Origin: Escherichia coli phage AZ21
DNA length: 64,000 bases
Sequence record: LC788708.1
Direction: 5' to 3' (one strand)
Position 1 is the first letter of the stretch. Each line of letters opens with the position of its first letter. The notes below the pieces were generated by a model that saw only the letters and a program-made list of their open reading frames with translations, did no database searches and was not told where the DNA came from. Positions 6,191 through 45,554 of this stretch are shown here, in pieces. A program made the position numbers and the translations under genes.

Positions 6191-6195
6191 TTCAT

Positions 6196-7401: not shown

Positions 7402-7439
7402 ATACTTCATAAATTGATAAACAAAAAGGAAAACAAATA

Positions 7440-7955: not shown

Positions 7956-8019
7956 TAGATAAATAGGGGCGAAAGCCCCTACAATCGACTAATTCTCTAA
8001 CTAATCAAGGATATTTTTT

Positions 8020-8235: not shown

Positions 8236-8279
8236 TTTAAATCAGGGGGGGGCGAAAGCCCCTCTTATTTGGAGAAACT

Positions 8280-8516: not shown

Positions 8517-8544
8517 TAGTTTTCTACACAATAAAGGATAAGTT

Positions 8545-9246
8545 ATGAAAGTAAAACCATTTGGTATGCTAGATATTGAATCTCTAGGAACTCCAGGAGA
8601 TTGTGGTACTACCCATATCGCAATGCCTTCATTCGCTTTTGTGGCTATGCATGGAATTGATAAAGACCCTGATCTAGTATTTGTTACTTTAGATGTACAA
8701 GATCAACTTAATTCTGGTGCCAAAGTTACAGCATCTACTCTAGCATTCTGGATGGATCAGGCTAAACATAGCCCGTCTGCTATCCACATTATGGAAGCTA
8801 TGAATGAGCGTAATCCAAAACTGGTTGCCTTCCAAAATGGTAAACATCATTGCACTAATAAACTTGGCTCTAACCATGCTGCCTTCTCTATGGCTCAAAA
8901 TATTATGGAGTTGGCTCTAGGCGAAAATGCTTTGTATTATGGCAATGGCCCAGAGTTTGATATGACTATCTACTCTGCAAACACTTTCCATGCTGGAACC
9001 AATGAAGAAATAGTTCCGTGGAAATTCTGGAACTTGGGTAATGTTAGATCTCTTCGTAATCTCTGGATGCAAACTGGCTATAGTTATAAAGCTCTAGAAA
9101 CCGAAGGTATTAGCTGGGCAATAGCTAAAATGGAGAAGATGGACACCATTCGTTATGGGATCTATCCGGTTAAGCACGACCCAGCATTCGATGCCCTAGT
9201 TGAGAGCTATTGTGTTGCAGCTATGATCGAAAAAATGAAAATTTGA
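8545..9246 (+). CDS. DEDDh-type 3'-5' exonuclease (Rv2179c-like fold suspected)
   Basis: N-terminal MLDIESLGTPG (Exo I) and C-terminal KHDPAFDAL (Exo III H-x4-D). Confidence 0.6.
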   Translation: MKVKPFGMLDIESLGTPGDCGTTHIAMPSFAFVAMHGIDKDPDLVFVTLDVQDQLNSGAKVTASTLAFWMDQAKHSPSAIHIMEAMNERNPKLVAFQNGKHHCTNKLGSNHAAFSMAQNIMELALGENALYYGNGPEFDMTIYSANTFHAGTNEEIVPWKFWNLGNVRSLRNLWMQTGYSYKALETEGISWAIAKMEKMDTIRYGIYPVKHDPAFDALVESYCVAAMIEKMKI

Positions 9247-9316: not shown

Positions 9317-9499
9317 ATGCCAGTATCTAAAAATGTTCGTAAAAATGGTAAGAAAGCTACTCGTAATCTGGGTATCCGTCGTATGGCTGAACGTCAATCA
9401 GGTATCCAGAAAATCTTTGATCTGCTAAATCGTGCTAATCCTAAAATTGATAACAGTAACGATACTGTTCTGCGCACCCTGCTGGCAATTGGTCTGTAA
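9317..9499 (+). CDS. small basic protein (60 aa)
   Basis: AAGGAA RBS and its own promoter. Highly basic N-terminus. Confidence 0.55.
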   Translation: MPVSKNVRKNGKKATRNLGIRRMAERQSGIQKIFDLLNRANPKIDNSNDTVLRTLLAIGL

Positions 9500-9552
9500 T
9501 AGACCAAATTTAAACAAATTCAAATCTCAAACTTCATATAAGGAAGCAAATA

Positions 9553-32884: not shown

Positions 32885-33774
32885 TGGGATTTTATAGTAA
32901 TAGAAAACCAAAAGGTGTAACTGGTAAATTCGCAGTTGAAGAAAGACCTTTTCCACCGGTCGATGTAGAGAAACTACGTGAACTTCTAGAAATGCTAGAA
33001 GGTTGCCATGAACGTTGTTATTCTGAACTCTCTTTAAATGAGAAACGTGTTGTTGAGATGTTCTGTATTCGTTCAGCTAGAACAGCTAAAGGTACTTCTC
33101 CAAAAGATGAAGTAAAAGAGTACAGAGTTCTAGTGATGCATGCTTGGGCACAACGTTTTGCAGTTCATTCGCTTCAGGAATGGTTTAATCTTCCAGCCTA
33201 TAAAGATTTTCATGTTTACGAAGATGAGGTTATGAATTATAATGAGTTGTATGGTTTGTCCTTCAAAAAGACAGGCTCACCGATGCATGATGCACTCAAT
33301 TCATTCCCTGATCATTACCTTCCAGTTCGTGAATATAGAGATCGTGAAGGAAATAAACCCTGCTTCACTATTTGGAATAAGTCTAAGACGATATCTGATC
33401 TAGATAATTATTGGTTTCGCACAAAAGAAGGATTCCTAGGAACAGAACCTTTACCTAAGGATCTCAAACCTATCCTTCCGCCTGCGAAACCTAAACATGA
33501 AGTAACGATTGCTATTAATAGAATAATTCTAGGAGCAGATGATCTTACTAAACAAATCGCCGCAGTTATCGCAGTTCTGTTTGACGGTACAAATTCTTCT
33601 GCACGTTATGAGAAGCTAACGGATAACAAATTGCAGATACCTAACGAGTTGTATGAGAGTTCGTGCAAGATCTATGATAACTTTAGTAAAGTAGATTACC
33701 CCGTGAGATCCATTAAAGAACTCATGGAGTATGCGGAGATGGGGATGAAAGGAAATCTCATGTTCGATGAATAA
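32884..33774 (+). CDS. hypothetical protein (296 aa), last gene of the early arm
   Basis: TAATG coupling. Long clean ORF. Confidence 0.7.
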   Translation: MGFYSNRKPKGVTGKFAVEERPFPPVDVEKLRELLEMLEGCHERCYSELSLNEKRVVEMFCIRSARTAKGTSPKDEVKEYRVLVMHAWAQRFAVHSLQEWFNLPAYKDFHVYEDEVMNYNELYGLSFKKTGSPMHDALNSFPDHYLPVREYRDREGNKPCFTIWNKSKTISDLDNYWFRTKEGFLGTEPLPKDLKPILPPAKPKHEVTIAINRIILGADDLTKQIAAVIAVLFDGTNSSARYEKLTDNKLQIPNELYESSCKIYDNFSKVDYPVRSIKELMEYAEMGMKGNLMFDE

Positions 33775-33781
33775 ACTCTAC

Positions 33782-33810
33782 TTGACGTTATGATTTCTGC
33801 ATGTTATAAT
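33782..33810 (+). promoter_or_regulatory. near-consensus sigma70 promoter reading into an ORF-free region
   Basis: TTGACG, 17 nt, TATAAT. Confidence 0.65.
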
Positions 33811-33817
33811 AACTCTA

Positions 33818-33990
33818 TGAAATAACATAGAATAAAGAGATCCACCCGGATACGGATGGTGGATGGGAAACTTCTATTTCCCCCGTAGCTTGTCGGAGGG
33901 CTAGGGAAATCTTAAGAAGTTTTGTACCATCTCACGCAATTCGTATCCCAGGGGTGGAGCATCTCTTCCAATCTTTGGGGATCTTATACT
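33818..33990 (+). ncRNA. candidate promoter-driven structured transcript
   Basis: No ORF. Local hairpins CTATG-aaataa-CATAG, TCCACC..GGTGGA and GGGAAA..TTTCCC. Long-range pairing CCACCCGGATACG / CGTATCCCAGGGGTGG. Confidence 0.3.
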
Positions 33991-34138
33991 TAAATTAAAG
34001 GTAAAACTTTTGGTCACATAATTTACATTCAAGATGATACACTGGTTGCCGCCATTCTTCCTAGGATGGCACAACACTTTCTTCTAGACTCCTAAGTTTC
34101 TAGGAATACTAACTCTAGAGTTTACACTAAACTTTGAA

Positions 34139-34876
34139 TCGGATTCGCACATGCTCTAGGGCAGTTTTTCATCTACTATAAATATCCTAGGCCGGTTTTC
34201 CTATACAGGGCGGTTATGGGGAGGGCGGTTATTTCTAGACAATAAAATTTACTCTTGTCAGTCCAGAAATTACTGTCGGATTTGCACATTGTGTTTCTAG
34301 AAATTTATGGTCGGATTTGCACAATTGCCTAAGTTTTTAGGAACATATAATCTCCTGAAAATGGCAGCATTATTTCGGGCCGAAGGCCCATGATTGCCTG
34401 AGTTTTTTTAGAGACACAGAAATTTTCACTTGTCAAGCTATTTTGCCCCATTTTGCTAATAAAATTTTACTTTATCTCCCCTAATCTCAAATTAACCCAA
34501 ATCTTCTCAACTCTTCTCCAAAATCCCCGCAAATCAGGTGCTCCGCACCAAACATGCGCCCCTCCCGTAGTTCCCCCAAGTTTCTCTCGATCTCTCAACT
34601 TCTCCCCAAACTCATACAATCACACACCCTCCAATCGAAGTCACAAAAATCTTGTCGGATTCGCACAAATAAACCCATGTCGGATTTGCACATATTCTAG
34701 TTAATTCCACAGGATTGATGCGCAGCATCGGATTGCTGGAGTTTTTGGGAGAATTCATTGTCGGATTCGCACACTATAAAAATTTTTCGGGTCGGATTTG
34801 CACACTACCAAAAATTGTCGGATTCGCACATACACGCCCACGCGTAATCCATGGGGGCAAATGTCGGATTTGCACA
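34139..34876 (+). repeat. array of nine direct 14-bp iterons GTCGGATT(T/C)GCACA
   Basis: Copies start at 34139 (lacks the first G), 34275, 34310, 34654, 34679, 34760, 34791, 34817 and 34863. All share one orientation. Confidence 0.9.
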
Positions 34877-34881
34877 AAAGC

Positions 34882-34899
34882 GCAGGGCAATTGCCCTGC
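34882..34899. repeat. perfect 18-bp palindrome GCAGGGCAATTGCCCTGC
   Basis: Read directly from the sequence. Confidence 0.9.
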
Positions 34900-34904
34900 T
34901 TGCC

Positions 34905-35100
34905 TGAATGCGAATGATAATGAGAATCATTTGCATTTAAAAAGCGGAATGAGAATGATAATAATTCGCATTTAAGAATGGAAGTGAGAATTATTCAGGA
35001 AGTGAAACGATTCTCATTTAAAAAGTGAAACGATTCTCATTTAGAAAGTGAAACGCGAATGATAATGATTCGTATTTAAGAATGGAAGTGAGAAACACTA
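34905..35100. promoter_or_regulatory. cluster of Fur-box-like imperfect palindromes and short tandem repeats
   Basis: 19-mers at 34916-34934 and 34951-34969 match GATAATGATAATCATTATC at 16/19 and 15/19 by hand. A 23-bp unit AGTGAAACGATTCTCATTTAAAA is tandem at 35001 and 35024. A ~40-bp direct repeat lies at 34947-34990 and 35054-35094. Confidence 0.6.
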
Positions 35101-35281
35101 TTATTTAAGTTATCCACAGACTTATCAACAGCACGATTTGACTTGACAGAATCCTAGCCATTTTGAGGCGTTATCAACAGACTTATCAACAGCTTATCCT
35201 ACTGTATAAATATACAGTATTCCTATGCAGTGAATAATTCTAATATACAGCTAAAACGCTCTCAAACGCATTCTAACGCGT
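35086..35281. repeat. left arm of a ~200-bp imperfect inverted repeat carrying DnaA-type boxes
   Basis: TTATCCACA at 35110. TTATCAACA at 35122, 35171 and 35183. Aligns with the reverse complement of 39128-39330. Confidence 0.85.
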
Positions 35282-35413
35282 TTAATTTTGGTGGGGATAC
35301 TAAAACAAGGGCAAAATTGGAGGAGGCTTGAAAATTAGTTAGCTCGCTAATGATCACACACGGCGACACGTAACACCCTAACCATTAGCAGGCTAACCAT
35401 CGCGGGCGTGGTC

Positions 35414-35434
35414 AAATGAGAATGATTCTCATTT
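35414..35434. repeat. perfect 21-bp palindrome AAATGAGAAT-G-ATTCTCATTT (Fur-box-like core)
   Basis: Read directly. The TGAGAATGATTCTCA core differs from TGATAATNATTATCA at one symmetric position pair. Confidence 0.85.
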
Positions 35435-35475
35435 GTGGATTGGGGGCGCTTCCTGATAGTTGCGCCCCGTGATTA

Positions 35476-35589
35476 TTATAGTAGGGGGCAACCGTTACGC
35501 TTTGCCCACTCCCGCCACTCATCTTGGTGCCTAGACTTGCGACGGCGTACTAAAAACCGCTTGTACCAGTGATTAAACCATCGTTTCAT
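35476..35589 (-). CDS. possible 37-aa basic Trp-rich peptide, last gene of the leftward cassette
   Basis: ATGA overlap with the upstream gene's stop. MKRWFNHWYKRFLVRRRK... Below the track cutoff. Confidence 0.35.
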   Translation of the reverse strand: MKRWFNHWYKRFLVRRRKSRHQDEWREWAKRNGCPLL

Positions 35590-35789
35590 AAATCCTCCTC
35601 CGGTAGTCGATGCGTGATCTTTTCCTCCTCCCCATAGGAATCCACCAAATACTGATAATAACCATCGTGATCATAAATCACTTTATCATATTCCCCACGC
35701 TCGACCGCTTGCCGATTTTCCAACGTATCAGGCACAAAGAAAGTATCAACGGTAACAGTAGTTTTAGTTACAACAATTTTATCACTCAT
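35586..35789 (-). CDS. pre-early-region hypothetical protein (67 aa)
   Basis: Co-directional cassette. AGGGG RBS region. Confidence 0.55.
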   Translation of the reverse strand: MSDKIVVTKTTVTVDTFFVPDTLENRQAVERGEYDKVIYDHDGYYQYLVDSYGEEEKITHRLPEEDL

Positions 35790-35809
35790 AATGCCATCGC
35801 CCCTAGAAT

Positions 35810-35828
35810 GAGAATGATTATCAATATC
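35810..35828. promoter_or_regulatory. Fur-box-like 19-mer GAGAATGATTATCAATATC
   Basis: 16/19 to the Fur consensus by hand. Lies in the intergenic gap of the leftward cassette. Confidence 0.45.
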
Positions 35829-35915
35829 ATTGTGAAGCCATTACCAAATCGTAAACGCTGGGAATGTTTCCCAGCGGTATTATTAGACTTATGGCTTTGT
35901 GTTTTTCGCCACCAG

Positions 35916-36116
35916 CTATTCACGGTAGACGCTCCATCCGTCTAGCTTCCATTCTTCCCCCTTGCGAATATTGAAAAACCAATCATTAAAATTGTAACCA
36001 TCTTCTGACATGATCACGCCGTTTTCTTTCATGTACAAAAATTCATCACTAGTAAAATATTGATTACTAACTTTAAAACCTTGTTTCATTTTTTCTAGTG
36101 CTTCATCTTTAGTCAT
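35916..36116 (-). CDS. small protein (66 aa) with DUF2829/Tad2-like N-terminal pattern (tentative)
   Basis: MTKDEALEKMKQGFKV... and a Trp-rich C-terminal part. ATGA coupling to the upstream gene. Confidence 0.55.
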   Translation of the reverse strand: MTKDEALEKMKQGFKVSNQYFTSDEFLYMKENGVIMSEDGYNFNDWFFNIRKGEEWKLDGWSVYRE

Positions 36117-36457
36117 TGCGCCACCTTTCGAAACGCTGTTTCAATACTATCCGCAGTGGATTGAATATATGCGCCTTTGAGTATCAGCCGCTCGGTGCAT
36201 ATCTTGCGAAAAATATTAATAAAATCGTCCTCATTTTCTGCGATTAATGCCTCACCCATAACCTGAACGTCGCAAGATGCAAAGGTCAAAAATTGAAACG
36301 CTAGTTCACGGGCAACGACCGCATTGATTTTATAATGCGCCTTGCCTTCATAGATATTAATAACGCCCTTATAAGCTGGCGAAAGCTGATTTAAGTAGTT
36401 TGCTAATAATGCCGGACGGCAATTAGCAACAAAACGATTGCCCTCATAAATAACCAT
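36113..36457 (-). CDS. hypothetical protein (114 aa)
   Basis: Co-directional cassette. Confidence 0.6.
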   Translation of the reverse strand: MVIYEGNRFVANCRPALLANYLNQLSPAYKGVINIYEGKAHYKINAVVARELAFQFLTFASCDVQVMGEALIAENEDDFINIFRKICTERLILKGAYIQSTADSIETAFRKVAQ

Positions 36458-36584
36458 TTGATAGTCTCCCGATTAGATAGCCAGATAATAACATAAAGAT
36501 CCCCAATAAAAGAGGATCATTCTTAAATAAGGTGGCGGTAAAACCGCCAACCATTGCAAGGAGAATAACAATAATGCTTTTCAT
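36444..36584 (-). CDS. possible 46-aa 2-TM peptide
   Basis: ATGA overlap with the upstream stop. MKSIIVILLAMVGGFTATLF...LLLGIFMLLSGYLIG. Below the track cutoff. Confidence 0.45.
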   Translation of the reverse strand: MKSIIVILLAMVGGFTATLFKNDPLLLGIFMLLSGYLIGRLSNGYL

Positions 36585-36793
36585 AGTACCCCACGAAACG
36601 CAGCGTAAAAGGTGGCAAAGTGTTTAACTGTTTCAGCAATCACGTTGCCGCGCTTATCAAATTTCTTTTCTGTAACACGAAAGGCATTTTTATTACGTGC
36701 TACATATTCGATTTTACAATCTTCCCGCTCGAACGTGTTAACATCCACCAGCTTAAAGCCTTTCGAACGTGCAAGAGAAACGTTGCGGATCAT
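36581..36793 (-). CDS. hypothetical basic protein (70 aa)
   Basis: AGGGGA RBS. Confidence 0.55.
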   Translation of the reverse strand: MIRNVSLARSKGFKLVDVNTFEREDCKIEYVARNKNAFRVTEKKFDKRGNVIAETVKHFATFYAAFRGVL

Positions 36794-36795
36794 TT

Positions 36796-36978
36796 TTATT
36801 CCCCTTTACTAGTCATGCAGCCCAGCAGATAAGAAAATACAGCGATGCCAGCACCAATAGTAACCATTGGTTTTATATTTACTAAACCGCAATAGGAATC
36901 CTGAATACCATAAGCGGTGGCGAAAAGAGTCAAAATAGCGCCCAAGATACCCGCTAAAATAGCTCGAAAAATAACCAT
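36796..36978 (-). CDS. 2-TM membrane protein (60 aa)
   Basis: GAGGAG RBS. Two hydrophobic helices. Confidence 0.55.
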   Translation of the reverse strand: MVIFRAILAGILGAILTLFATAYGIQDSYCGLVNIKPMVTIGAGIAVFSYLLGCMTSKGE

Positions 36979-37027
36979 TTGTAATACTCCTCTAGTTAGT
37001 GGGGCGAAAGTAACGCCCCGTTATTAA

Positions 37028-37258
37028 TTACATTAAAATAATTTTTGCCGCTTGTTTTTTGGTACAGTGTTCCGCTTTCAGGGTGTCCAGCAAAAAGCCC
37101 GCCGTTTGCTGATCGATTTTATCGGCATTATATAGTTCTTGGATGGTGTTATAAGTTTTAGCAATGCCGTATTCTTGTACCATTTCTTGAATAATCCAGC
37201 GATTTGATACCCAGCCTTTACCAGTGAAAAGAGCGTCAGAAGAAGAGTAAGCAACCAT
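37028..37258 (-). CDS. hypothetical protein (76 aa)
   Basis: ATG 37258 after a GGAGG RBS. The track start at 37291 lacks an RBS. Confidence 0.55.
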   Translation of the reverse strand: MVAYSSSDALFTGKGWVSNRWIIQEMVQEYGIAKTYNTIQELYNADKIDQQTAGFLLDTLKAEHCTKKQAAKIILM

Positions 37259-37321
37259 TTTAAGCCTCCAAATTTTTGGGAAAATTTTCAACCGTCCTCA
37301 AACGGTGTAAAGGCATTATAA

Positions 37322-37348
37322 CAAAAAAGGCCGCCATAAAAGGCGACC
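37322..37348 (-). terminator. rho-independent terminator (minus strand)
   Basis: GGTCGCC-ttttat-GGCGGCC followed by TTTTTT on the minus strand. Confidence 0.65.
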
Positions 37349-37364
37349 TTTACAAAACTTTACA

Positions 37365-37859
37365 TTAAACTACTTGTAAGGATTCAATATTGAAACATCG
37401 TTTCAGTTCGTCATGCAAAACGGCATATTCATCCCATCGGGTACTATCAGGAATATAAACAAGCTGTTTTAATCGGTTTGCATATATTACCGCTTTGTTA
37501 TCAATTATCTCGACGCCACCATATTTAATAATTAATTTCATGACGGAATTAATAGGATCGCCGCCGTTTACATATGCGCCGGATTTACTTAATTGATAAT
37601 GATAAAGGCTTGCATATACGTTTTCATTTTCATACCATTCGCCAGTCTCTTCGTCTTCATAGCCATCGCTACCAAAACGAGAAGCATTATCAACAGCCAT
37701 TTCATGAGCAAAAGCGTCCAGATCCGTACCAGCAGGAACAAAATATTCCTCGGTATTCCCTTCCCCGCAATAGCCAGTATGACAATCGACTAAAATGATC
37801 ATATCATGTTTAGCCTTGCTCACTTCCCCTAGCGAGAAGCCGTATTTTTCTTCTAACAT
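37365..37859 (-). CDS. hypothetical acidic protein (164 aa)
   Basis: ATG 37859 after AGGAGACTAATT. Confidence 0.65.
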   Translation of the reverse strand: MLEEKYGFSLGEVSKAKHDMIILVDCHTGYCGEGNTEEYFVPAGTDLDAFAHEMAVDNASRFGSDGYEDEETGEWYENENVYASLYHYQLSKSGAYVNGGDPINSVMKLIIKYGGVEIIDNKAVIYANRLKQLVYIPDSTRWDEYAVLHDELKRCFNIESLQVV

Positions 37860-37923
37860 AATTAGTCTCCTATTAATTAACAAGGAAATAGTAAAGCGGG
37901 GAAATAATCCCCGCTAGATATTA

Positions 37924-38157
37924 TTACTCGTTTTCGGTGTTAGTGGTAAAAGTAGAGATATCGATACCTTTTACCATTTCATCGATCATCTCAGCGATGT
38001 TAAAACTTTGCACCATTTCTAACATTGCCGCTTCCATAGCCGCCCCTGCTACCGCTTTCGCTTTCTGATTAGTCGGGGCGTACTGGTCAACCGCTACACT
38101 CAGCAGGTTAGCGATCACTACACGACCAATCGGCGTATCAATATAGCCTTTGATCAT
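37924..38157 (-). CDS. 77-aa ORF, probably the C-terminal part of the upstream gene
   Basis: Open in the +1 frame relative to 38138-38929. No RBS of its own. Confidence 0.5.
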   Translation of the reverse strand: MIKGYIDTPIGRVVIANLLSVAVDQYAPTNQKAKAVAGAAMEAAMLEMVQSFNIAEMIDEMVKGIDISTFTTNTENE

Positions 38158-38929
38158 AAACGGTGCTTTTTTTAGCCGCTACTTTCGTGATTTGAGTTAG
38201 TGCAATTTTACCAGCTTCCAGTTTTGCAGCGTTTACAACAGCGGATTTATTAGCGGCAACGATATTAGCGATCTTGGTCATGGTATTTTTTCCTTTGTTT
38301 TCAGTAGTTTGAGTATTAACGCTTTGAGTGTTAGAGCTTACAACCTGTTTTTCAATATTGTCAACTGGTTTTAGTGTAAATCCAGCATTTGCAACGTTTG
38401 ATTCATTCCCATACTCTAAATAATCACTAGGGATCAACATGTTGCCACTAGCGCGTTCAAAACATAACACGCCAGTTGTAGAAATTACATTACTATCAGC
38501 ACTTTTGTAATTAGCTGATAGTTCACGCCAAATGCTAGTTAATAACGATCCGACACTATCAGTCCTGATATTACTTACTTTTGTTGCTGTTACTTGCTCT
38601 TTTTCTTGCACGTTATATAATCGCGCAATGTAACCACTATTAGATTCACTATAACCAACAATGATAAAATCAATATCTCTTCCACGTTGATTGCGGAAAA
38701 TGTGATAATCACGGTTGAAAATTACTAGCGCCCTTTTCTGGTCTAGTAATTGTGTGAAATCTTCAACTGAATAATGAGTACCCTCATCGTCTAAAATTCT
38801 ATCATGAATCTTTTCGATAATAGTAGCGGTATGCTGTACGCTTGCCGCGCTACTACCCTCTAACAGATTGCGCAAACTGCCTTTAATAATAGTGGCGTTT
38901 GCTGGTACTGCAATTCTTACAGTAGACAT
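38138..38929 (-). CDS. first gene of the leftward cassette (263 aa as written)
   Basis: GGGAG RBS. Ends 27 nt after an A7 run at 38167-38173. Confidence 0.65.
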   Translation of the reverse strand: MSTVRIAVPANATIIKGSLRNLLEGSSAASVQHTATIIEKIHDRILDDEGTHYSVEDFTQLLDQKRALVIFNRDYHIFRNQRGRDIDFIIVGYSESNSGYIARLYNVQEKEQVTATKVSNIRTDSVGSLLTSIWRELSANYKSADSNVISTTGVLCFERASGNMLIPSDYLEYGNESNVANAGFTLKPVDNIEKQVVSSNTQSVNTQTTENKGKNTMTKIANIVAANKSAVVNAAKLEAGKIALTQITKVAAKKSTVYDQRLY

Positions 38930-38961
38930 TTTATTTTGTCTCCCTCGTTAATCGGTGAGTG

Positions 38962-38991
38962 AATGATAAGGGTAATTTTCTAGCATAGGCA
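38962..38991 (-). promoter_or_regulatory. candidate promoter of the leftward cassette
   Basis: On the minus strand: A-tract, TTGCCT, 18 nt, TATCAT. Confidence 0.4.
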
Positions 38992-39127
38992 AATATTATT
39001 TTACTTTTTTATTTTCCTTGCCTAGCGTCTAATTTTATGCTAACCGCGCAGCGGTGCAATAAAGAGCAAACCACGGCGAAGCCACCAGCCCGACGCATTG
39101 AGGCTTTACTTTAATATTACCTTACAG

Positions 39128-39330
39128 CGTTTAGCTCGTTAGAATGCGTTTTGGGCCACTTAAAATTGATTGCAGTTGTTAACACTACCTTTCTACCCTG
39201 TATATTTATACAGTGGAATAACCTGTGGATAAGTCTGTGCAAAAGTCCTTATATCACCGCCTATCGTGTCAAGTTATTTTGTGCTGTGGAAAACATTGTG
39301 GATAACTTAAATGATAGTGCTTCTCACTTA
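39128..39330. repeat. right arm of the ~200-bp imperfect inverted repeat with DnaA-type boxes
   Basis: TGTGGATAA at 39224 and 39297. TGTGGAAAA at 39285. The shared core CTGTATAAATATACAG is also present. Confidence 0.85.
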
Positions 39331-39554
39331 GGCTAATGATTTCTTATAGTTATTATTTCTCATTAATTTATAAGTATATTATATATTATCAAATAGTTAG
39401 TTGGCTAATGAGATTTTCCGTGATTAATAGTCTGCTAATAATTCAGGTCGTTACAATCCACCAGCATGATTATCATTCTAGCAATTATTAGTCTGCTATC
39501 TTTCCGATACATACTAACAAATAAAAGTCAATTAATTTATTTCATAAAATAAGT

Positions 39555-39591
39555 AGTTATCCACTGGAAAATAAAAGTCAAGTGGATAACT
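39555..39591. repeat. palindrome of two inverted DnaA-like boxes
   Basis: AGTTATCCACT - 15 nt - AGTGGATAACT. A further TTATCAACA lies at 39624. Confidence 0.8.
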
Positions 39592-40034
39592 AGGAAAATT
39601 TCATTTTTGCTTTTGGGGATAAGTTATCAACAAGGCTAGAATGCGCCTAAAACGCTCCAGAACGCGATGAAGTTTTTAGCCACCCCATCATAAGGGGATA
39701 GGCCGTTTATCGCTGCCACGAGCTTTTTAGATTTTGTCAAGTAGGGGAAAGCAAATATAAATGAAAAAATTACTTGCCTATTTGCTTTATTTTGTGGTAT
39801 TCGCGCCCGTTTCTTTTAATTTTAGGCCGTCGCCGGACGTGGTGCGGTGAATTTTGTCTTTACGTTTCTTTACAAAAATAAGGTTGCGCCATTTTCGGGA
39901 ATCCCCTATTATTTATCACGTAGGGCGGCAATGACGAACTACACGGCGGGAAGTTTACCGCCACGCTCTTTAAAAATTGGGTACATCTTAAAGCCTATCG
40001 GCGGTAAACTTATTTATTATAAGGAATCGACGAT

Positions 40035-40247
40035 ATGAAACAAACTTTATTGATCACTGGCAAGCCTATTAAGGCACTAGATAGCAAAACAAAAAATTTG
40101 TTGACAGTAGCGCAAAGATCGGTAAAATACCGATTCACGCAGTACAAGAAAGACCGCCAGCAAGGTTTAGAAATGATCTGGCGAAACATTATGATTGACT
40201 TGAAAGAAAATCATAAAAAACTGCAAAAAAATTATTTGACAACCTAG
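40035..40247 (+). CDS. doubtful 70-aa basic ORF inside the bracketed segment
   Basis: AAGGAAT RBS-like sequence, but the segment contains several -35/-10-like elements. Confidence 0.3.
   Translation: MKQTLLITGKPIKALDSKTKNLLTVAQRSVKYRFTQYKKDRQQGLEMIWRNIMIDLKENHKKLQKNYLTT
40101..40128 (+). promoter_or_regulatory. candidate pre-early promoter
   Basis: TTGACA, 16 nt, TAAAAT. Confidence 0.45.
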
Positions 40248-40264
40248 CCGATAGGTTTTAAGAT
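40236..40264 (+). promoter_or_regulatory. candidate pre-early promoter of the A2-A1-dmp operon
   Basis: TTGACA, 17 nt, TAAGAT. Confidence 0.55.
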
Positions 40265-40391
40265 GTACCCAGTTCGATAAGAGCGATAACTTGATAAAAT
40301 TTGACGGTCGGTGCTTACCATAATGCGCCCCGCCCCCTAACGGGATATAGCGGCCTACGTGGAGTTCTTTAAATTGATTATAGCGGCGAGA

Positions 40392-40445
40392 GGATTGTTA
40401 CTTATTACCTGCTAGTATTTTCTAGTAGGTAATAAGTAACAATCC
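40392..40445. repeat. 54-nt near-perfect palindrome (24-bp stem, 6-nt loop)
   Basis: GGATTGTTACTTATTACCTGCTAG-tatttt-CTAGTAGGTAATAAGTAACAATCC. Lies just upstream of the first operon RBS. Confidence 0.9.
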
Positions 40446-40468
40446 ATCAAATAACTGGAGTTTATATT

Positions 40469-40720
40469 ATGCAAAACGTTATTACCGCGCCTAAAATTGG
40501 TCAATCCGTCTTTATTCCTTTCGTTACTAAAACGGATGAATTAACCGGAAAGGCCGAACGTATTAAAGGTGCGGCGCTTATGCCGTTCGATACAATCGAC
40601 GCGGTATATGCTGAAAATGAACGCAGTAACAACGGCAAGCCCGTTTTTAGCGTTCGCGTTAAATCCGGCGATGTTGTAAAGGTTGTTCAACGCAACGAAA
40701 AATGGGAAGCTGTGTTGTAA
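40469..40720 (+). CDS. pre-early hypothetical protein (83 aa)
   Basis: CTGGAG RBS. Followed by a hairpin at 40734-40763. Confidence 0.65.
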   Translation: MQNVITAPKIGQSVFIPFVTKTDELTGKAERIKGAALMPFDTIDAVYAENERSNNGKPVFSVRVKSGDVVKVVQRNEKWEAVL

Positions 40721-40818
40721 TTTAGTGTTAACTTTATATCCCCCTTATTTCAGGGGGATATAACGATTAACATTAAGTTAATCTAATCCCTTAAATTAAA
40801 CTAATAGGAGTTTTTACC

Positions 40819-41226
40819 ATGACTAACGCAAAAACCGCAAAATTCGCATGGAATGAAGAAAACACTCAGAAAGCTGTTACCATGTACCAGCAGTTAATCA
40901 ACGAAAACGGTTTAGATTTTGCAAATAGCGACGGCCTGAAAGAGATTGCAAAAGCAGTAGGCGCGGCCTCCCCCGTATCCGTTCGGTCAAAATTGACCAG
41001 TGCAAAAGCCTATCAAAAAAGCGATAAGCCGCGTAAAGTTGGCGGCGGTAGCTCTGTGCGTAAAGCTCACTATGTGCGAGTAATTGCAAAACACGCTATC
41101 GATTCCGGTATTATCAAAGACGCCGATGATCTGGCAAGCCTTGAAAGTGCTAAACTGGAAACGCTGGACGCGGTGGCGCAACTGTTAGGCGTTGCCGATG
41201 AAGTAAAACAAGCCGTAGGTGAATAA
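40819..41226 (+). CDS. A2: pre-early protein A2
   Basis: 135 aa. Size, position just upstream of A1 and recalled sequence character match T5 A2. Confidence 0.75.
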   Translation: MTNAKTAKFAWNEENTQKAVTMYQQLINENGLDFANSDGLKEIAKAVGAASPVSVRSKLTSAKAYQKSDKPRKVGGGSSVRKAHYVRVIAKHAIDSGIIKDADDLASLESAKLETLDAVAQLLGVADEVKQAVGE

Positions 41227-41316
41227 TAGTTATACCTTGCCCCCTTCTAGTGAGGGGGCACTAATATAACTGTTTAGCGATAGTTATTTTCTTCCCTTAA
41301 ATCAGGAGTTTTAAAA

Positions 41317-41514
41317 ATGGTTTTCTTCCCTACTGAATCTTTGATTCTAGGCTTGTTTATTATGGCGGCCTCATTATTGTTCGCTTATTTTCAGAATGAT
41401 TTAGATTCGTATTATTTTAAACGTAAATCTAAATTAGCAAAACGTTTGGGCTTGCTTTGTTTTATCGCTGCCGTTGCCTGTGGTGTTAGTTCGAGTCTAG
41501 TACCATTAAATTAA
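41317..41514 (+). CDS. pre-early 2-TM membrane protein (65 aa)
   Basis: CAGGAG RBS. Two hydrophobic helices. Confidence 0.6.
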   Translation: MVFFPTESLILGLFIMAASLLFAYFQNDLDSYYFKRKSKLAKRLGLLCFIAAVACGVSSSLVPLN

Positions 41515-41601
41515 TGTTGCAAATTATAACGCCTATTATTCGAGGCGTTATATTTGGCAATATTGCCATTATTAACCTAATCCCTTTAATGGAGTTTTAT
41601 T

Positions 41602-43272
41602 ATGATTATTTCCGCAGAAAAACAAACCGTTATCCTGAAAATGGCCGCTGATTTCAATTTCTACGGTAAACGCCTGCGCGCCACTAAACTGGAGGTCTGC
41701 GACGATATTTCAAAAGCGGTCTACGATACAACGAAACACTCCACCGCTATCTGCGACTGGCTGGAAGCAAATAAACCAGCGAAACCAAAAGCGGCAAAAG
41801 TAGCAAAAGCCATTAAAAACGGTGAGCGCCCCGAAGCGGCTGGGATTGTTTCTAGTACCGTGGAGCAGTGGGAAGTAAAACAAGGTAAACGCTTTATTAT
41901 TACATCGATTCAGAATAATACTTTCCCGCATAAAAACTTTTTAGCCTCACTGGAGCAATTTGCTAAATATATCGGGGCTGATTTGCTCGTTTCTAAGTAT
42001 ATTTATAATAAAAACGGTTTTCAAAATGGGGAAGGTGCTGACGGAATCAAATATGATTCCGCGTTTGATAAATATATTTGCAGCAAAAACGTGTTTTTGA
42101 ATAACCGCCGCTTTGCTTTCATGGCTGAAATTAATGTTTTGCCTACCGCAGATTATCCGCTTTCTGGATTCGCAGAAACTGCAACGGCTTTAAATATTGA
42201 AGGTCTGGCAATTGGTCACGCTAAAATTACCGCTGAAAGCGTACCAGCTTTAAAAGGTGAAGTAGTGCGCCGTATGTACTCAACCGGAACGGCAACGCTC
42301 AAAAACTACATTCAGCAGAAAGCAGGACAAAAGGCCGAGGCGCTGCATAACTTCGGTGCGCTTATTGTTGAGTTCGACGAGGACGGGGAATTTTTTGTAC
42401 GCCAGCTTGAAACGATGGACGAAAGCGGGGTATTTTATGATCTGAATGTGTGTGCTACTCCTGCCGGATGCTATGAAACATCGGGGCATGTTTTAGGCTT
42501 GCAGTATGGCGATATTCACGCCGAAAAATTAGATGAGGAGTGCGCCGCCGCGTCATGGGGGCATGGTGATACTTATGGGCTAGTAGATATTCTTAAACCA
42601 AAATATCAGTTTGTGCATGACGTGCATGATTTTACATCGCGCAATCATCATAACCGCGCATCGGGTGTATTCCTAGCAAAACAGTACGCCGCCGGACGTG
42701 ATAAGGTTATTGATGATCTTATCGATACGGGGCGCGTGCTGGAATCAATGGAGCGTGATTTTTCTCAAACAATCATTGTTGAATCGAATCACGATTTGGC
42801 GTTATCCCGTTGGCTTGATGATCGTAATGCTAACATCAAAGACGATCCAGCAAACGCAGAACTGTATCACCGCCTGAATGCTGCAATTTACGAGGCAATC
42901 GGTGAACATGACGAAACGTTCAACGTGCTAGATTATGCGCTGCGCAAGGTTGCAGGTTGTGAGTTTAACGCCATTTTCCTGACCACTGACCAATCTTTCA
43001 AGATTGCAGGCATTGAATGCGGCGTACACGGTCACAACGGCATTAATGGCAGTCGTGGCAATCCCAAACAATTTAAGAAATTGGGCAAGTTAAACACTGG
43101 TCATACTCATACGGCAAGCATTTACGGCGGGGTATATACCGCTGGCGTAGCTGGTAGTCTGGATATGGGTTACAACGTTGGCGCGTCAAGCTGGACGCAA
43201 ACTCATTTAATTACCTATGCAAACGGTCAGCGCACTTTGATTGACTTTAAGAACGGTAAATTTTTTGCGTAA
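41602..43272 (+). CDS. A1: pre-early protein A1 (metallophosphoesterase-type nuclease motifs)
   Basis: 556 aa, the T5 A1 length by recall. C-terminal half has GDIHAEK, VESNHD, GVHGHNG and TGHTH motifs of calcineurin-like/Mre11-type phosphoesterases. Confidence 0.8.
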   Translation: MIISAEKQTVILKMAADFNFYGKRLRATKLEVCDDISKAVYDTTKHSTAICDWLEANKPAKPKAAKVAKAIKNGERPEAAGIVSSTVEQWEVKQGKRFIITSIQNNTFPHKNFLASLEQFAKYIGADLLVSKYIYNKNGFQNGEGADGIKYDSAFDKYICSKNVFLNNRRFAFMAEINVLPTADYPLSGFAETATALNIEGLAIGHAKITAESVPALKGEVVRRMYSTGTATLKNYIQQKAGQKAEALHNFGALIVEFDEDGEFFVRQLETMDESGVFYDLNVCATPAGCYETSGHVLGLQYGDIHAEKLDEECAAASWGHGDTYGLVDILKPKYQFVHDVHDFTSRNHHNRASGVFLAKQYAAGRDKVIDDLIDTGRVLESMERDFSQTIIVESNHDLALSRWLDDRNANIKDDPANAELYHRLNAAIYEAIGEHDETFNVLDYALRKVAGCEFNAIFLTTDQSFKIAGIECGVHGHNGINGSRGNPKQFKKLGKLNTGHTHTASIYGGVYTAGVAGSLDMGYNVGASSWTQTHLITYANGQRTLIDFKNGKFFA

Positions 43273-43328
43273 TTAAATTATTTCCCTAGCGGCTTGAAAT
43301 ACAGCCGCTATTACAGGAGCTAAATTAA

Positions 43329-43607
43329 ATGGCTATTAAAATTAATCTTCCCAATATTAAAAACACCGCTGATATATGGTCGATTGATACTATATTGCGT
43401 GGCACTGTATACCGTAATTTAAAAGATAATAATTGTTATATTTATCAAAATGAATTAAACGGCCATATTTACATAATCGAGTCCGATGGTTTTTGTTCTT
43501 TTGAGACTGATTATGAAGCGCAAGATCATATACAGGCAAATGATATTCCTGACGTATGGAAAGAAACAAACCTTGCTTTTGTTGTAAGTCTTGAAGCTAA
43601 CAAATAA
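43329..43607 (+). CDS. pre-early hypothetical protein (92 aa)
   Basis: CAGGAG RBS. Confidence 0.6.
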   Translation: MAIKINLPNIKNTADIWSIDTILRGTVYRNLKDNNCYIYQNELNGHIYIIESDGFCSFETDYEAQDHIQANDIPDVWKETNLAFVVSLEANK

Positions 43608-43645
43608 ATTAAATATCTTATTAAATTAATTGGAGTTTTACAAAT

Positions 43646-44038
43646 ATGAAAAAGCAAAATATTCCATTCGATCGCGCTCAGTCTTCTATTGTTCTGGTTT
43701 ATTCTAATGGTGAGCGTTACCACGTCGAGGCGGGGCACGTTATTGATGAATTATTAGATTTCAATGACGCTTTACAGGTTACTACCTTTGCCTACACGCA
43801 AGGCCGCGCAAGTAGTTACATTAAGGCCGCAGGCGTTTATGTTGACACGGTGAAACAAGAAACGATTATCATCGACGCAGTAAAATCCGGTCTAGCCTTT
43901 GCAGTTGTCGCGCCTTGCCCCTCTTGTCTTGATGATCAGCTAACGAGTGCGAAAGTATACACCTGCGCGGGCATTCGTTCCCATGTATCAGGAGAGGATA
44001 TTAGTTTTATCGCTGATGCGTTGGCTTATGGTCTTTAA
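43646..44038 (+). CDS. pre-early hypothetical protein (130 aa)
   Basis: TTGGAG RBS. Confidence 0.6.
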   Translation: MKKQNIPFDRAQSSIVLVYSNGERYHVEAGHVIDELLDFNDALQVTTFAYTQGRASSYIKAAGVYVDTVKQETIIIDAVKSGLAFAVVAPCPSCLDDQLTSAKVYTCAGIRSHVSGEDISFIADALAYGL

Positions 44039-44118
44039 TAGTTGATTTATTATTGCCCGCTGATAGATAGCGGGCAATGCTGGATAAACTACATCCCTTT
44101 AATGGAGAACGTAACAAA

Positions 44119-44853
44119 ATGAATCAAGTTAAAACGAATATTTCCCGTAACTTCCCGCATATTTCCCGCGTCATGATCTGGGATCTTGATGGCACTATCG
44201 TTAATTCATTCCATCGTGTAGCGCCTTGCTTTGATAGTGAGGGTAATCTAGATTTAAATAAGTATAAGAATGAGGCTTGCAAACATGATTTAATAATGCA
44301 GGATACTTTATTGCCTTTGGTGGAATATATGCGCCAATGCATGAATGACGCAAATACTTTAAACATTATTTGTACCGCTCGATTAATGAGCAAATCGGAT
44401 TATTATTATTTGCGCAAACAAGGCTTGCGAGGGCGTGGGGATAGCAATATCCGCGTGTTTTCCCGCGACACGCTGCATAAATATTTTGAAGCTGATAAGG
44501 TTAGCGAGATATACCACAGTAAAGACGCAGTTTATAAATCGTATTACTTTGAATTATTTAAACAGCTATATCCGAACGCTGATTTCACAATGATTGATGA
44601 TCATAAAGGTGTATTATCAGCGGCGGCGTCATACGGATTTAAAACGCTAGACGCGCAAGCCGTTAACGATATTCTATCAATCGGCGTGGCATTGATAGGC
44701 GGAACCTTTATTGATGAATCTCTCGATGATGATAATGATTATCAGTTCCTAGCCGATCGATTGAAATTATGTTGGGAAAGTATGACCGAAGAAGAACGCG
44801 CAGAATATAGTTGCAGCCCGCAACAATATATTGAGAAATTAAAAGTTGCGTAA
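44119..44853 (+). CDS. dmp: 5'-deoxyribonucleotidase (HAD family)
   Basis: 244 aa from ATG 44119. The track start at 44077 lies in hairpin 44052-44078. HAD motif I is IWDLDGTIV. Confidence 0.8.
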   Translation: MNQVKTNISRNFPHISRVMIWDLDGTIVNSFHRVAPCFDSEGNLDLNKYKNEACKHDLIMQDTLLPLVEYMRQCMNDANTLNIICTARLMSKSDYYYLRKQGLRGRGDSNIRVFSRDTLHKYFEADKVSEIYHSKDAVYKSYYFELFKQLYPNADFTMIDDHKGVLSAAASYGFKTLDAQAVNDILSIGVALIGGTFIDESLDDDNDYQFLADRLKLCWESMTEEERAEYSCSPQQYIEKLKVA

Positions 44854-44870
44854 TAATTAAAGTTGAAATA

Positions 44871-44907
44871 GTTTCATCCTGCAATTAAAATGGTTGCGGG
44901 ATGAAAC
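44871..44907 (+). terminator. 14-bp GC-rich hairpin closing the A2-A1-dmp operon
   Basis: GTTTCATCCTGCAA-9 nt-TTGCGGGATGAAAC. No clear T-run. Confidence 0.5.
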
Positions 44908-45017
44908 AATTACCCTGCTAATAGTAACGGGGGTGGCGGTTAGCAGACTAAGTATTCTCCCCCAACCCACTGGACACACCTCCATGTGTAATCCTATGAA
45001 ATTTGGCAAAAGTCAAA

Positions 45018-45263
45018 TTAGCGCATAGAAGGGTCATCAAACCTGTGCTCTGGTCTGAACTCACGGAATCTCTTCCACGACGCCCGAGATCCATCAGACC
45101 ACTCCCGCTCAAACTCCGCACGTTTCTCGTCAAACTTCCGCTCCCTTTCCGCAATCTCTCGCGTCACCCCCGCGATATATTCCCGATGCTTGTTAATTGC
45201 CGCAGTTGTCCCGAAAACTCCCGCGAGTATCCCGATAATAAAAGCAATTACAATACTAAACAT
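45018..45263 (-). CDS. N-terminal-TM protein with a charged tail (81 aa)
   Basis: Last of a coupled minus-strand chain. Confidence 0.6.
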   Translation of the reverse strand: MFSIVIAFIIGILAGVFGTTAAINKHREYIAGVTREIAERERKFDEKRAEFEREWSDGSRASWKRFREFRPEHRFDDPSMR

Positions 45264-45450
45264 CTAATTCCCTCTCAATTTGCAGAATACGGGTACTATC
45301 ACAACGTTGCAGTAGTGCTAGCTTTTCTAGAGTAACTTGTTGTTGTTTTACCTGAGCTTCTAGAGTTTTTAGGCGGAGATACACGATACGAGAGACAATG
45401 AGGATTACCCAGACTAATATTACCATTAGTGTAATTGCCGCTTCCATCAT
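45256..45450 (-). CDS. single-TM coiled-coil protein (64 aa)
   Basis: ATGA coupling to the upstream mini-ORF. Confidence 0.6.
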   Translation of the reverse strand: MMEAAITLMVILVWVILIVSRIVYLRLKTLEAQVKQQQVTLEKLALLQRCDSTRILQIERELDV

Positions 45451-45554
45451 TTACGTTTCTCCAATAATAAGGTTTCAATTCTAGCTAAATGATTATCTAA
45501 AATACATTGTCCAATAATCACAATCCCTAGTAGTGCAATAATTACCCATTCCAT
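45447..45554 (-). CDS. 35-aa single-TM peptide
   Basis: TAATG overlap upstream and ATGA overlap downstream. MEWVIIALLGIVIIGQCIL... Below the track cutoff. Confidence 0.5.
   Translation of the reverse strand: MEWVIIALLGIVIIGQCILDNHLARIETLLLEKRK

What the first reader, a model, noticed from the sequence alone, without database searches (positions are those of the whole stretch)
39340..39700. AT-rich stretch with short direct repeats and an inverted pair of DnaA-like boxes (origin-like architecture)
- **Location:** immediately inside the second ORF-free region.
- **AT-rich run (39340-39550):** it contains duplicated TAGTCTGCTA (about 39428 and 39489) and duplicated AAATAAAAGTCAA.
- **DnaA-like boxes:** the palindrome AGTTATCCACT-15 nt-AGTGGATAACT (39555-39591) follows, then GGATAAGTTATCAACA (39617-39632).
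- **Third motif copy:** a third copy of the AAACGC..CTAACGCG-type motif seen in both inverted-repeat arms lies at 39641-39666.
- **Interpretation:** AT-rich unwinding-type sequence next to clustered DnaA boxes is the classical layout of a DnaA-dependent origin or of a DnaA sink.
Basis: partly seen in the sequence, partly recalled or inferred. Interest (0 to 1): 0.5.

Follow-up and report, generated by a model that had tools for sequence, protein, structure and literature searches.

The report
DnaA-box module in T5-like phage repeat
The AT-rich stretch and DnaA-like boxes are real and conserved, but they lie in the already-described non-coding centre of the first-injected terminal repeat of a T5-like phage and are dispensable in phage T5, so they are probably an accessory host-DnaA binding site rather than a replication origin.

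Summary
The window is a T5-like phage, 100% identical to E. coli phage AZ23. The finding lies in the non-coding gap between the two divergent pre-early operons of the terminal repeat (first-step-transfer DNA). This gap corresponds to Repeat Regions 1 and 2 of the T5 literature.

Just left of the finding is the known IRC-spacer-IRD element. It carries four consensus DnaA boxes and is an inverted copy of the injection-stop-signal arm.

The finding adds two things:
- **AT-rich spacer:** the least stable DNA in the 64 kb window, but variable in length between relatives and the site where T5 carries the hegG homing-endonuclease gene.
- **83-bp module (39553-39635):** four one-mismatch DnaA boxes, nearly invariant among close relatives. 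A two-to-three-box form occurs in Epseptimavirus and Sugarlandvirus. About 400 phage records carry a box-bearing version. About 100, including T5, carry a box-less allele.

A published T5 deletion, whose primers I mapped to T5 5394-9160, removes the homologue of the AT-rich run and the IRC/IRD boxes and is viable.

An essential origin is therefore very unlikely. An accessory DnaA-binding element is the best reading, and no one has tested it experimentally.

The parts
39198..39329 (.). IRC-spacer-IRD element, just left of the finding. It is an inverted copy of the injection-stop-signal arm at 35086-35217. It holds four strict-consensus DnaA boxes on the minus strand, in two pairs separated by 3 bp: 39224-39232, 39236-39244, 39285-39293 and 39297-39305.
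   Evidence: I1, I2. It matches T5 6098-6228, which is Davison's IRCspacerIRD. Across 35 unique sequences and 4 box slots, variation concentrates at box positions 3 (A/T only) and 5 (any base). These are the degenerate positions of the DnaA consensus.
39330..39552 (.). AT-rich non-coding spacer.
- Least stable DNA of the window at 39350-39389.
- In relatives, a 31-bp minisatellite expands at about 39340-39360.
- 15-mer repeats at 39423-39437 and 39484-39498.
- First AAATAAAAGTCAA copy at 39519-39531.
- Window 39440-39526 is the stretch that the hegG cassette replaces in T5.
   Evidence: 31-bp unit, 3.6 copies in L008; T5 junctions. The 51-aa ORF at 39336-39491 is not conserved. Its start codon is absent from the relatives' sequences printed. 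In my own reading of those sequences (no tool), every difference from L153 changes the amino acid.
39553..39635 (.). Conserved 83-bp box module.
- TTATCCACT on the plus strand (39557-39565) and on the minus strand (39581-39589) form the palindrome.
- Invariant 19-mer AAATTTCATTTTTGCTTTT at 39596-39614.
- Back-to-back pair TTATCCCCA on the minus strand (39614-39622) and TTATCAACA on the plus strand (39624-39632).
   Evidence: Among 8 unique close relatives only 1 of 83 sites varies, against 9 of 53 and 21 of 60 in the flanks. AGTGGATAACT, the 19-mer and GTTAT[C/T]AACA are shared with Epseptimavirus and Sugarlandvirus. T5-type phages carry a box-less allele instead.
39636..39668 (.). 'Motif B' (IRB of the T5 literature), about three helically spaced CTAAAACGC-like units. 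It is inverted relative to 39127-39155 and direct relative to 35250-35285.
   Evidence: (D13, I12). It is conserved in all three genera. In Sugarlandvirus locus L040 it forms a perfect 36-bp palindrome.
35086..35217 (.). Partner arm in the injection-stop-signal region (IRD'-spacer-IRC'), with boxes on the plus strand at 35110, 35122, 35171 and 35183.
38963..38992 (-). Promoter-like site upstream of the gene 011 homologue. It marks the left edge of the stretch that carries no known promoter-driven transcription.
   Evidence: TTGCCT-18-TATCAT. T5 annotation places a promoter at 6411-6489. This promoter was experimentally characterised in T5.
40101..40264 (+). Two strong promoter-like sites, homologues of T5 P_H22 and P_D/E20. 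They drive the hdi-A2-A1-dmp operon and mark the right edge of the gap.
   Evidence: TTGACA-16-TAAAAT and TTGACA-17-TAAGAT. T5 annotation.

Best explanation
The finding is the middle of the non-coding region that separates the two divergent pre-early operons in the terminal repeat (first-step-transfer DNA) of a T5-like phage.

It has two components:
- An AT-rich spacer that tolerates length changes. It is also a landing site for a homing-endonuclease gene.
- A strongly constrained 83-bp module of DnaA-box-like 9-mers followed by the 'motif B' repeats.

I infer that the module is a third, accessory member of the set of host-DnaA binding clusters on the first-injected DNA. The other two are IRC/IRD (39224-39305) and the injection-stop-signal arm (35110-35191). 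This phage therefore carries 12 boxes rather than the 8 described.

Most likely mechanism (inferred, not shown): host DnaA assembles on these clusters as the DNA enters. Together with the inverted repeats, this builds a nucleoprotein complex that holds or organises the first-step-transfer DNA during the pause before second-step transfer. It may also modulate the flanking pre-early promoters.

The module is beneficial but not essential, and it is not a replication origin.
For: **Identity and location**
- 100% match to phage AZ23, with hundreds of T5-like relatives.
- Collinear with the T5 left terminal repeat.
- Flanked by the gene 011 homologue on one side and hdi, A2 and A1 on the other.

**DnaA specificity**
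- Four strict-consensus boxes sit next to the finding.
- Across 140 box instances, variation falls at positions 3 (A/T only, 17%) and 5 (all bases, 32%). Positions 1, 2, 4, 7, 8 and 9 vary by 6% or less. This matches the code TT[A/T]TNCACA.
- Strong statistical clustering.

**Constraint on the module**
- 1 of 83 variable sites, against 30 of 113 in the flanks.
- The core is shared by three genera and 409 phage records.

**Accessory, not essential**
- 102 records including T5 carry a box-less allele.
- The T5 deltaL-deltaR deletion is viable, with small plaques.

**Published context**
- DnaA boxes in the T5 stop-signal region have been known since 1987.
- A model in which membrane-bound DnaA acts as an anchor has been proposed, and a secondary first-step-transfer band was reported near IRC.

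**Not host-derived:** no match in 5,426 E. coli genomes.
Against: - No binding of DnaA to any of these sites has been shown. The authors of the BF23 paper state that experimental studies are lacking.
- All four boxes inside the finding deviate from the consensus, at position 9, 7 or 6. They may bind weakly or only cooperatively.
- The whole 83 bp is invariant, including the palindrome loop and a 19-mer that is not a DnaA box. Another ligand could therefore be involved.
- T5 performs two-step transfer without this module, and presumably also in the mutant that lacks IRC/IRD. That limits any role in stopping injection.
- Similarity between the module and the other two clusters is confined to short motifs and is only marginally significant.
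Confidence: 0.5

Rival explanations
1. DnaA-dependent replication origin, primary or auxiliary. DnaA on the flanking boxes melts the AT-rich run and phage or host helicase is loaded there.
For: - Boxes lie on both sides of the least stable DNA of the window.
- T5 is reported to use multiple internal origins, so a secondary origin is not formally excluded.
- Repeated 15-mers are spaced 61 bp apart.
Against: - The T5 homologue of the AT-rich run plus the IRC/IRD boxes can be deleted.
- T5 naturally lacks the right-hand boxes.
- The AT run is a length-variable minisatellite and a hegG insertion site, and it is missing in Sugarlandvirus.
- No GATC over 1.5 kb. No DnaA-trio array and no conserved IHF site.
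- No Rep-like neighbour; the flanking proteins are families of unknown function.
- According to Davison, T5 origins were mapped near the genome centre and the replication genes arrive only with second-step transfer.
- T5 encodes its own candidate initiator, D2.
Confidence: 0.05
2. Transcription element rather than a DnaA site. The palindrome would act as a hairpin terminator or insulator between the divergent pre-early units, and the AT-rich run would carry promoters.
For: - In the box-less allele, a different hairpin followed by a T-run occupies the same position just after hegG. In L036 it is a strong GC-rich terminator.
- The window palindrome folds well and, read on the minus strand, is followed by CTTATTTTAT.
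- Promoter-like hexamers, for example TAGCCA-18-TATAAT on the minus strand (39407-39378), are retained in Epseptimavirus and T5. The hit is; the comparison is my reading of the sequences.
Against: - The terminator scan finds nothing here. The stem is AT-rich with a 15-nt loop.
- The left arm of the palindrome is absent in Epseptimavirus and Sugarlandvirus, although the right-hand box is invariant.
- The known strong promoters all point away from this region.
- Many promoter-like hits are expected in DNA with 20% GC, and the spacing of the candidates is not consistent between T5 and the window.
- No Rfam family matches.
Confidence: 0.15
3. Binding platform for another protein that happens to include DnaA-like words. 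Candidates are the phage DNA-binding protein A2 or a host nucleoid protein.
For: - The entire 83 bp is invariant, including the 19-mer AAATTTCATTTTTGCTTTT. A version of this 19-mer is retained even in box-less alleles.
- The adjacent motif B repeats, CTAAAACGC-like and spaced about 10 bp apart, accompany all three box clusters.
- A2 is an essential DNA-binding protein with no known target.
Against: - The box positions that vary in the neighbouring clusters follow the DnaA degeneracy code.
- Perfect TTATCCACA words recur across genera.
- Nothing links A2 to these sequences.
Confidence: 0.15
4. Largely functionless mosaic left by homing-endonuclease traffic and recombination in a tolerant non-coding gap.
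For: - Two sharply different alleles occur in the same place.
- hegG is inserted here in T5.
- The minisatellite copy number varies between relatives.
- T5 tolerates deletion of most of the region.
Against: - The module is far more conserved than its flanks.
- Its core persists across three genera and about 400 records, while the surrounding sequence is unalignable.
Confidence: 0.1

Closest known systems
[quoted passage not shown]
   Same: - Same genomic position, between gene 011 and hdi.
- Same IRC-spacer-IRD element, inverted relative to the stop-signal arm.
- Same IRB/IRB' and IRA/IRA' repeats.
- Same pairs of DnaA boxes separated by 3 bp.
   Different: Davison's preprint describes eight boxes, in IRC, IRD, IRD' and IRC'. 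The four boxes at 39557-39632 lie between Repeat Regions 2 and 1. T5 lacks them because it carries hegG and the box-less allele there. They are not mentioned in the sections of the preprint that I read. The Wang 2005 and Davison 2015 papers were not available to me.
E. coli oriC
   Same: Consensus DnaA boxes lie next to an easily melted AT-rich stretch. From my own memory of the oriC sequence, not tested here, the 11-mer AGTTATCCACA at IRD equals the oriC R4 context.
   Different: - No GATC cluster; the region is a GATC desert.
- No tandem 13-mers.
- No conserved IHF site.
- The homologue is dispensable in T5.
- No sequence similarity to any E. coli genome.
datA and DARS1/DARS2 (chromosomal loci that titrate or recycle DnaA)
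   Same: Non-origin clusters of DnaA boxes that include oppositely oriented boxes (DARS boxes I and II).
   Different: [quoted passage not shown] Here the opposed pairs are separated by 1 bp and by 15 bp.
- The perfect IHF consensus at 39387-39399 is not conserved in relatives.
- A regulatory effect on host initiation would be pointless in a host whose DNA is degraded within minutes.
Iteron-type plasmid and prophage origins with flanking DnaA boxes, such as P1 oriR and RK2 oriV (from general knowledge)
   Same: DnaA boxes at both ends of an AT-rich segment that carries short direct repeats.
   Different: There is no adjacent Rep gene. Each repeat has only two copies. The repeats are not conserved as an array.

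Membership tests
Central non-coding repeat region (RR1/RR2) of the terminal repeat of T5-like phages | Located in the terminal repeat between the gene 011 operon and the hdi-A2-A1-dmp operon | tested here: met
Central non-coding repeat region (RR1/RR2) of the terminal repeat of T5-like phages | Contains a ~131-bp IRC-spacer-IRD element inverted relative to IRD'-spacer-IRC' in the stop-signal region, with paired DnaA boxes 3 bp apart | tested here: met
   (39198-39329 against 35086-35217). Matches the description.
Central non-coding repeat region (RR1/RR2) of the terminal repeat of T5-like phages | IRB/IRB' and IRA/IRA' repeats present | tested here: met
   (39127-39155 with 39641-39668; 39964-40002 with 40247-40285)
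DnaA-dependent origin of the oriC type | Cluster of consensus DnaA boxes | tested here: met
DnaA-dependent origin of the oriC type | Adjacent AT-rich unwinding element | tested here: inconclusive
   It is the least stable DNA in the window. However, it is length-polymorphic, interrupted by hegG in T5, and absent in Sugarlandvirus.
DnaA-dependent origin of the oriC type | Tandem AT-rich 13-mers, GATC clustering or DnaA-trio array next to a box | tested here: not met
   Zero GATC in 38551-40051. No trio-like array. The two 13-mers are 50 bp apart, and one lies in the palindrome loop.
DnaA-dependent origin of the oriC type | Required for replication, or supports autonomous replication | tested here: not met
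   This is indirect evidence from T5. The viable deletion of T5 5394-9160 removes the homologous AT-rich run and the IRC/IRD boxes. T5 also lacks the right-hand boxes. Autonomous replication cannot be tested with these tools.
DARS-type DnaA-reactivating sequence | Boxes I and II oppositely oriented with a 5-bp gap, plus box III in the same direction as box II | tested here: not met
   Opposed pairs are present, but their gaps are 1 bp (39614-39632) and 15 bp (39557-39589). No third box lies in register.
datA-type DnaA titration locus | Box cluster with a functional IHF site | tested here: inconclusive
   A perfect WATCAANNNNTTR match lies at 39387-39399. In relatives the sequence there is TATGAAATAGTTA or ATCATGAAATAG, so the site is not conserved.
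DnaA binding site (any function) | DnaA protein binds the sequences | not testable with these tools
   Only sequence evidence is available. The substitution pattern follows TT[A/T]TNCACA.
Rho-independent terminator | GC-rich stem, short loop, and a T-run immediately after the stem | tested here: not met
   No hit in the scan. The stem is AT-rich, the loop is 15 nt, and the plus-strand T-run starts about 8 nt after the stem.
Known RNA family | Match to an Rfam covariance model | tested here: not met
   Only microRNA-model noise, well below the gathering thresholds.

The most novel reading that the evidence does not exclude
A virulent phage uses host DnaA as a structural partner for genome delivery. 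Three DnaA-box clusters on the first-injected DNA, with the module at 39553-39635 as the third, would recruit membrane-associated DnaA. This would brake, tether or fold the entering DNA during the pause between first-step and second-step transfer. The natural split between box-bearing and box-less alleles would tune this brake.
Probability: 0.2. Interest if true: 0.75.

Novelty: new member of a known kind. Interest (0 to 1): 0.3.

Why it matters
How T5 stops and restarts DNA injection has been an open question for about 60 years. The only sequence-based hypothesis involves DnaA boxes in the first-injected DNA.

This analysis adds three things:
- Many T5-like phages carry a further box module that is strongly constrained.
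- That module exists in nature as box-bearing alleles (about 400 records) and a box-less allele (about 100 records).
- The substitution pattern of the neighbouring boxes follows the DnaA recognition code.

The natural alleles, together with the viable T5 deletion, provide ready material for allele-swap and DnaA-binding experiments. The analysis also removes the idea that this region is a replication origin.

Tried and rejected
- **Rfam scan of 33500-45500:** only sub-threshold microRNA noise.
- **Small ORF 39336-39491:** the start codon is absent in relatives. By my own reading of those sequences, all differences from L153 change the amino acid. It is not coding.
- **Promoter reading of the conserved 19-mer:** the spacing between candidate -35 and -10 hexamers is not conserved between alleles (reasoned from the alignment).
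- **Intrinsic terminator:** no hit.
- **IHF site:** the perfect match at 39387 is not conserved.
- **DnaA-trio array:** none.
- **Host origin of the sequence:** no match in E. coli genomes.
- **Exact-pattern scan of viral contigs with the 17-mer ATTTCATTTTTGCTTTT:** mostly chance hits in unrelated AT-rich contigs and no new relatives.
- **Module as a clear paralogue of the IRC/IRD or stop-signal arms:** only 14-20-nt motif matches, z about 2-3.5.
- **Rep-like neighbour:** the flanking proteins match only domains of unknown function.
- **Literature not held:** Davison 2015, Bourguignon 1976 and Wang 2005 could not be read. Statements about mapped T5 origins therefore rest on how later papers cite them.

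Full report
**Observation**

- The 15-mers ATTA[A/T]TAGTCTGCTA lie at 39423-39437 and 39484-39498.
- The 13-mer AAATAAAAGTCAA lies at 39519-39531 and 39569-39581.
- The palindrome AGTTATCCACT-15 nt-AGTGGATAACT lies at 39555-39591. As single-stranded DNA it folds at -10.2 kcal/mol, z = -6.35.
- GGATAAGTTATCAACA lies at 39617-39632.
- A CTAAAACGC..AACGC motif lies at 39646-39665. It also occurs at 35250-35269 (direct) and at 39130-39155 (inverted).

GC falls to 21-27% over 39300-39600. By nearest-neighbour energy, 39350-39389 is the least stable 40-mer of the whole 64 kb and 39302-39401 is the least stable 100-mer.

The boxes are clustered far beyond chance. There are 7 matches within one mismatch of TTATCCACA in 39190-39700, against 0.18 expected, and 0 of 2000 shuffles reach this. 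There are 4 in 39550-39640, against 0.02 expected. GTTATCCAC occurs four times in the window, all in these repeat regions.

One qualification applies. The four boxes inside the finding each carry one mismatch to TT[A/T]TNCACA. The four strict-consensus boxes (39224, 39236, 39285, 39297) sit just left of the finding's start.

**What the region is**

The window is 100% identical to E. coli phage AZ23. The 1.2-kb region matches 542 records of T5-like phages.

Alignment to T5 (AY543070) shows the following:
- Window 44976 down to 39527 equals T5 1-5419, which carries dmp, A1, A2, gene 007 and hdi.
- Window 39328-38940 equals T5 6098-6486.
- Window 35311-33977 equals the annotated injection stop signal.

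The finding therefore lies in the terminal repeat, which is the first-step-transfer DNA. It sits in the roughly 1.1-kb gap between the leftward gene 011 operon and the rightward hdi-A2-A1-dmp operon. The characterised promoters of these operons point away from the gap.

Davison's preprint calls this gap Repeat Regions 1 and 2. It notes that they are one region in phages that lack the T5 hegG insertion. It describes IRC-spacer-IRD as an inverted copy of the stop-signal arm IRD'-spacer-IRC', with two DnaA boxes 3 bp apart in each of IRC, IRD, IRD' and IRC'. In the window these elements are 39198-39329 and 35086-35217.

**What the finding adds**

Between IRD and motif B the window has an AT-rich spacer (39330-39552) and an 83-bp module (39553-39635) with four more box-like 9-mers.

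Alignment of 24 unique relatives shows two allele families for the module. The box-bearing family has three forms:
- *Window type.* It has the palindrome plus GGGGATAAGTTATCAACA. 121 phage records match the 83 bp at 95% identity or more.
- *Epseptimavirus and Sugarlandvirus types.* They lack the left palindrome arm. They keep AGTGGATAACT, the 19-mer AAATTTCATTTTTGCTTTT, and TGTATAAGTTAT[T/C]AACA. About 286 records fall here. The complement of the TTTGTATAA stretch reads TTATACAAA, one mismatch from the consensus. These types therefore keep the back-to-back box pair as well.

The box-less family includes T5, HildyBeyeler and Spc35, 102 records in all. It has unrelated sequence at each box position and a different hairpin followed by a T-run at the place of the palindrome.

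Among 8 unique close relatives the module has 1 variable site in 83. The flanks have 9 in 53 and 21 in 60. The module is therefore under stronger constraint than its surroundings.

The AT-rich spacer behaves differently:
- It holds a 31-bp minisatellite that ranges from 0 to 3.6 copies among relatives.
- It is shortened in T5.
- In T5, window 39440-39526 is replaced by the 600-bp hegG cassette.
- It is absent from Sugarlandvirus.

**Is DnaA the ligand?**

No binding data exist. One sequence test does speak for DnaA. Across 35 unique sequences and the four IRC/IRD slots (140 boxes), variation is concentrated at position 3 (17%, only A or T) and position 5 (32%, all four bases). Positions 1, 2, 4, 7, 8 and 9 vary by 6% or less, and position 6 by 11%. 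This is the degeneracy of TT[A/T]TNCACA. Within the module, the only between-genus change in the right-hand box is also at position 5 (TTATCAACA against TTATTAACA).

Against a pure DnaA reading, the loop of the palindrome and the 19-mer are invariant too. In addition, the CTAAAACGC-like repeats accompany all three clusters.

**Why it is not an origin**

- T5 lacks the four module boxes.
- The Boulanger-Rossier preprint reports a viable T5 mutant deleted from hegG to gene 017. Its junction primers map to T5 5360-5393 and 9159-9186. The deletion therefore removes T5 5394-9160, the homologue of window ~35460-39553. That stretch includes the AT-rich run, the 15-mer repeat and all the IRC/IRD boxes. 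The phage makes smaller plaques but grows.
- There is no GATC between 38551 and 40051, where about 5 would be expected. There is no DnaA-trio-like array, and the only IHF consensus match (39387-39399) is not conserved.
- The neighbouring proteins are domains of unknown function, not initiators.
- According to Davison, T5 origins were mapped near the genome centre, and the replication genes enter only with second-step transfer. T5 has its own candidate initiator, D2. I could not read the primary mapping papers.

**Most likely mechanism**

I infer that the module is an accessory third DnaA-box cluster of the first-step-transfer DNA. This phage then has 12 boxes rather than the 8 described. DnaA loaded on the three clusters, together with the long inverted repeats, would organise or tether the injected DNA during the pause. 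It might also influence the flanking pre-early promoters.

This follows Davison's untested model. That model also cites a minor first-step-transfer band of about 5.8 kb near IRC in T5. The natural box-less allele and the viable deletion show that any such role is not essential.

**Rivals**

The rival readings, with the confidence I assign, are:
- a transcription terminator or promoter element (0.15);
- a platform for another protein such as A2 (0.15);
- a functionless mosaic left by homing-endonuclease traffic (0.10);
- a replication origin (0.05).

**Novelty and score**

The region and the oriC-like look of its DnaA boxes are already published. The extra module, its allelic dimorphism and the substitution-pattern test are modest additions. 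I rate it a new member of a known kind, with interest 0.3.

Noticed in passing
window 37924-38929 (minus strand): The gene 011 homologue (Pfam DUF7566, 336-position profile) is split into two overlapping ORFs. 38138-38929 covers profile positions 1-257 and 37924-38157 covers 260-336. This points to a frameshift, a pseudogene or a sequencing error.
   Followed up: partly
window 37365-37883 (minus strand): A 172-aa ORF (phrog_6741, unknown function) lies in a ~550-bp stretch with no T5 counterpart, between the homologues of genes 011 and 012.
   Followed up: no
window 34260-34880: The stop-signal direct repeats TGTCGGATT[T/C]GCACA include ATTTGCACA five times, all on the plus strand. This is one mismatch from the degenerate DnaA consensus. 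The stop-signal region may therefore hold more DnaA-like sites than the four usually counted.
   Followed up: partly
window 38551-40051: There is no GATC site in 1.5 kb covering the whole central non-coding gap. The window average is one per ~290 bp.
   Followed up: partly
window 39340-39360; L008:2414-2524: A 31-bp AT-rich minisatellite (TTTCATATAGTTATTATTATACTGGTGATGA) is present in 0 to 3.6 copies among close relatives. The window has the single-copy form.
   Followed up: yes
window 39440-39526; T5 (L001) 5418-6017: T5 and many relatives carry the HNH homing-endonuclease gene hegG, with its own promoter, in place of this 87-bp stretch. In T5 hegG is linked to the box-less allele of the adjacent module. 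HildyBeyeler has the box-less allele without hegG. Whether HegG cleaves the box-bearing allele is unknown.
   Followed up: partly
window 40392-40445: A 24-nt-arm, 96% complementary palindrome lies between hdi and gene 007. It is 89% similar to T5 9493-9546, inside the T5 stop-signal region.
   Followed up: no
window 39964-40002 and 40247-40285: A 39-nt inverted repeat (IRA/IRA') brackets the hdi gene. One strong promoter-like site lies between the arms, and the other (40236-40264) overlaps the right arm.
   Followed up: no
L040:2401-2436: In Sugarlandvirus-type phages, motif B is a perfect 36-bp palindrome, CTAAAACCGCTTAGAATCGATTCTAAGCGGTTTTAG. This suggests a dimeric DNA-binding protein as its ligand.
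   Followed up: no
window ~44976: T5 position 1, the physical left end of the genome, aligns to window 44976. The source record is 104 kb, which fits a permuted assembly with the terminal repeat collapsed to one copy.
   Followed up: partly
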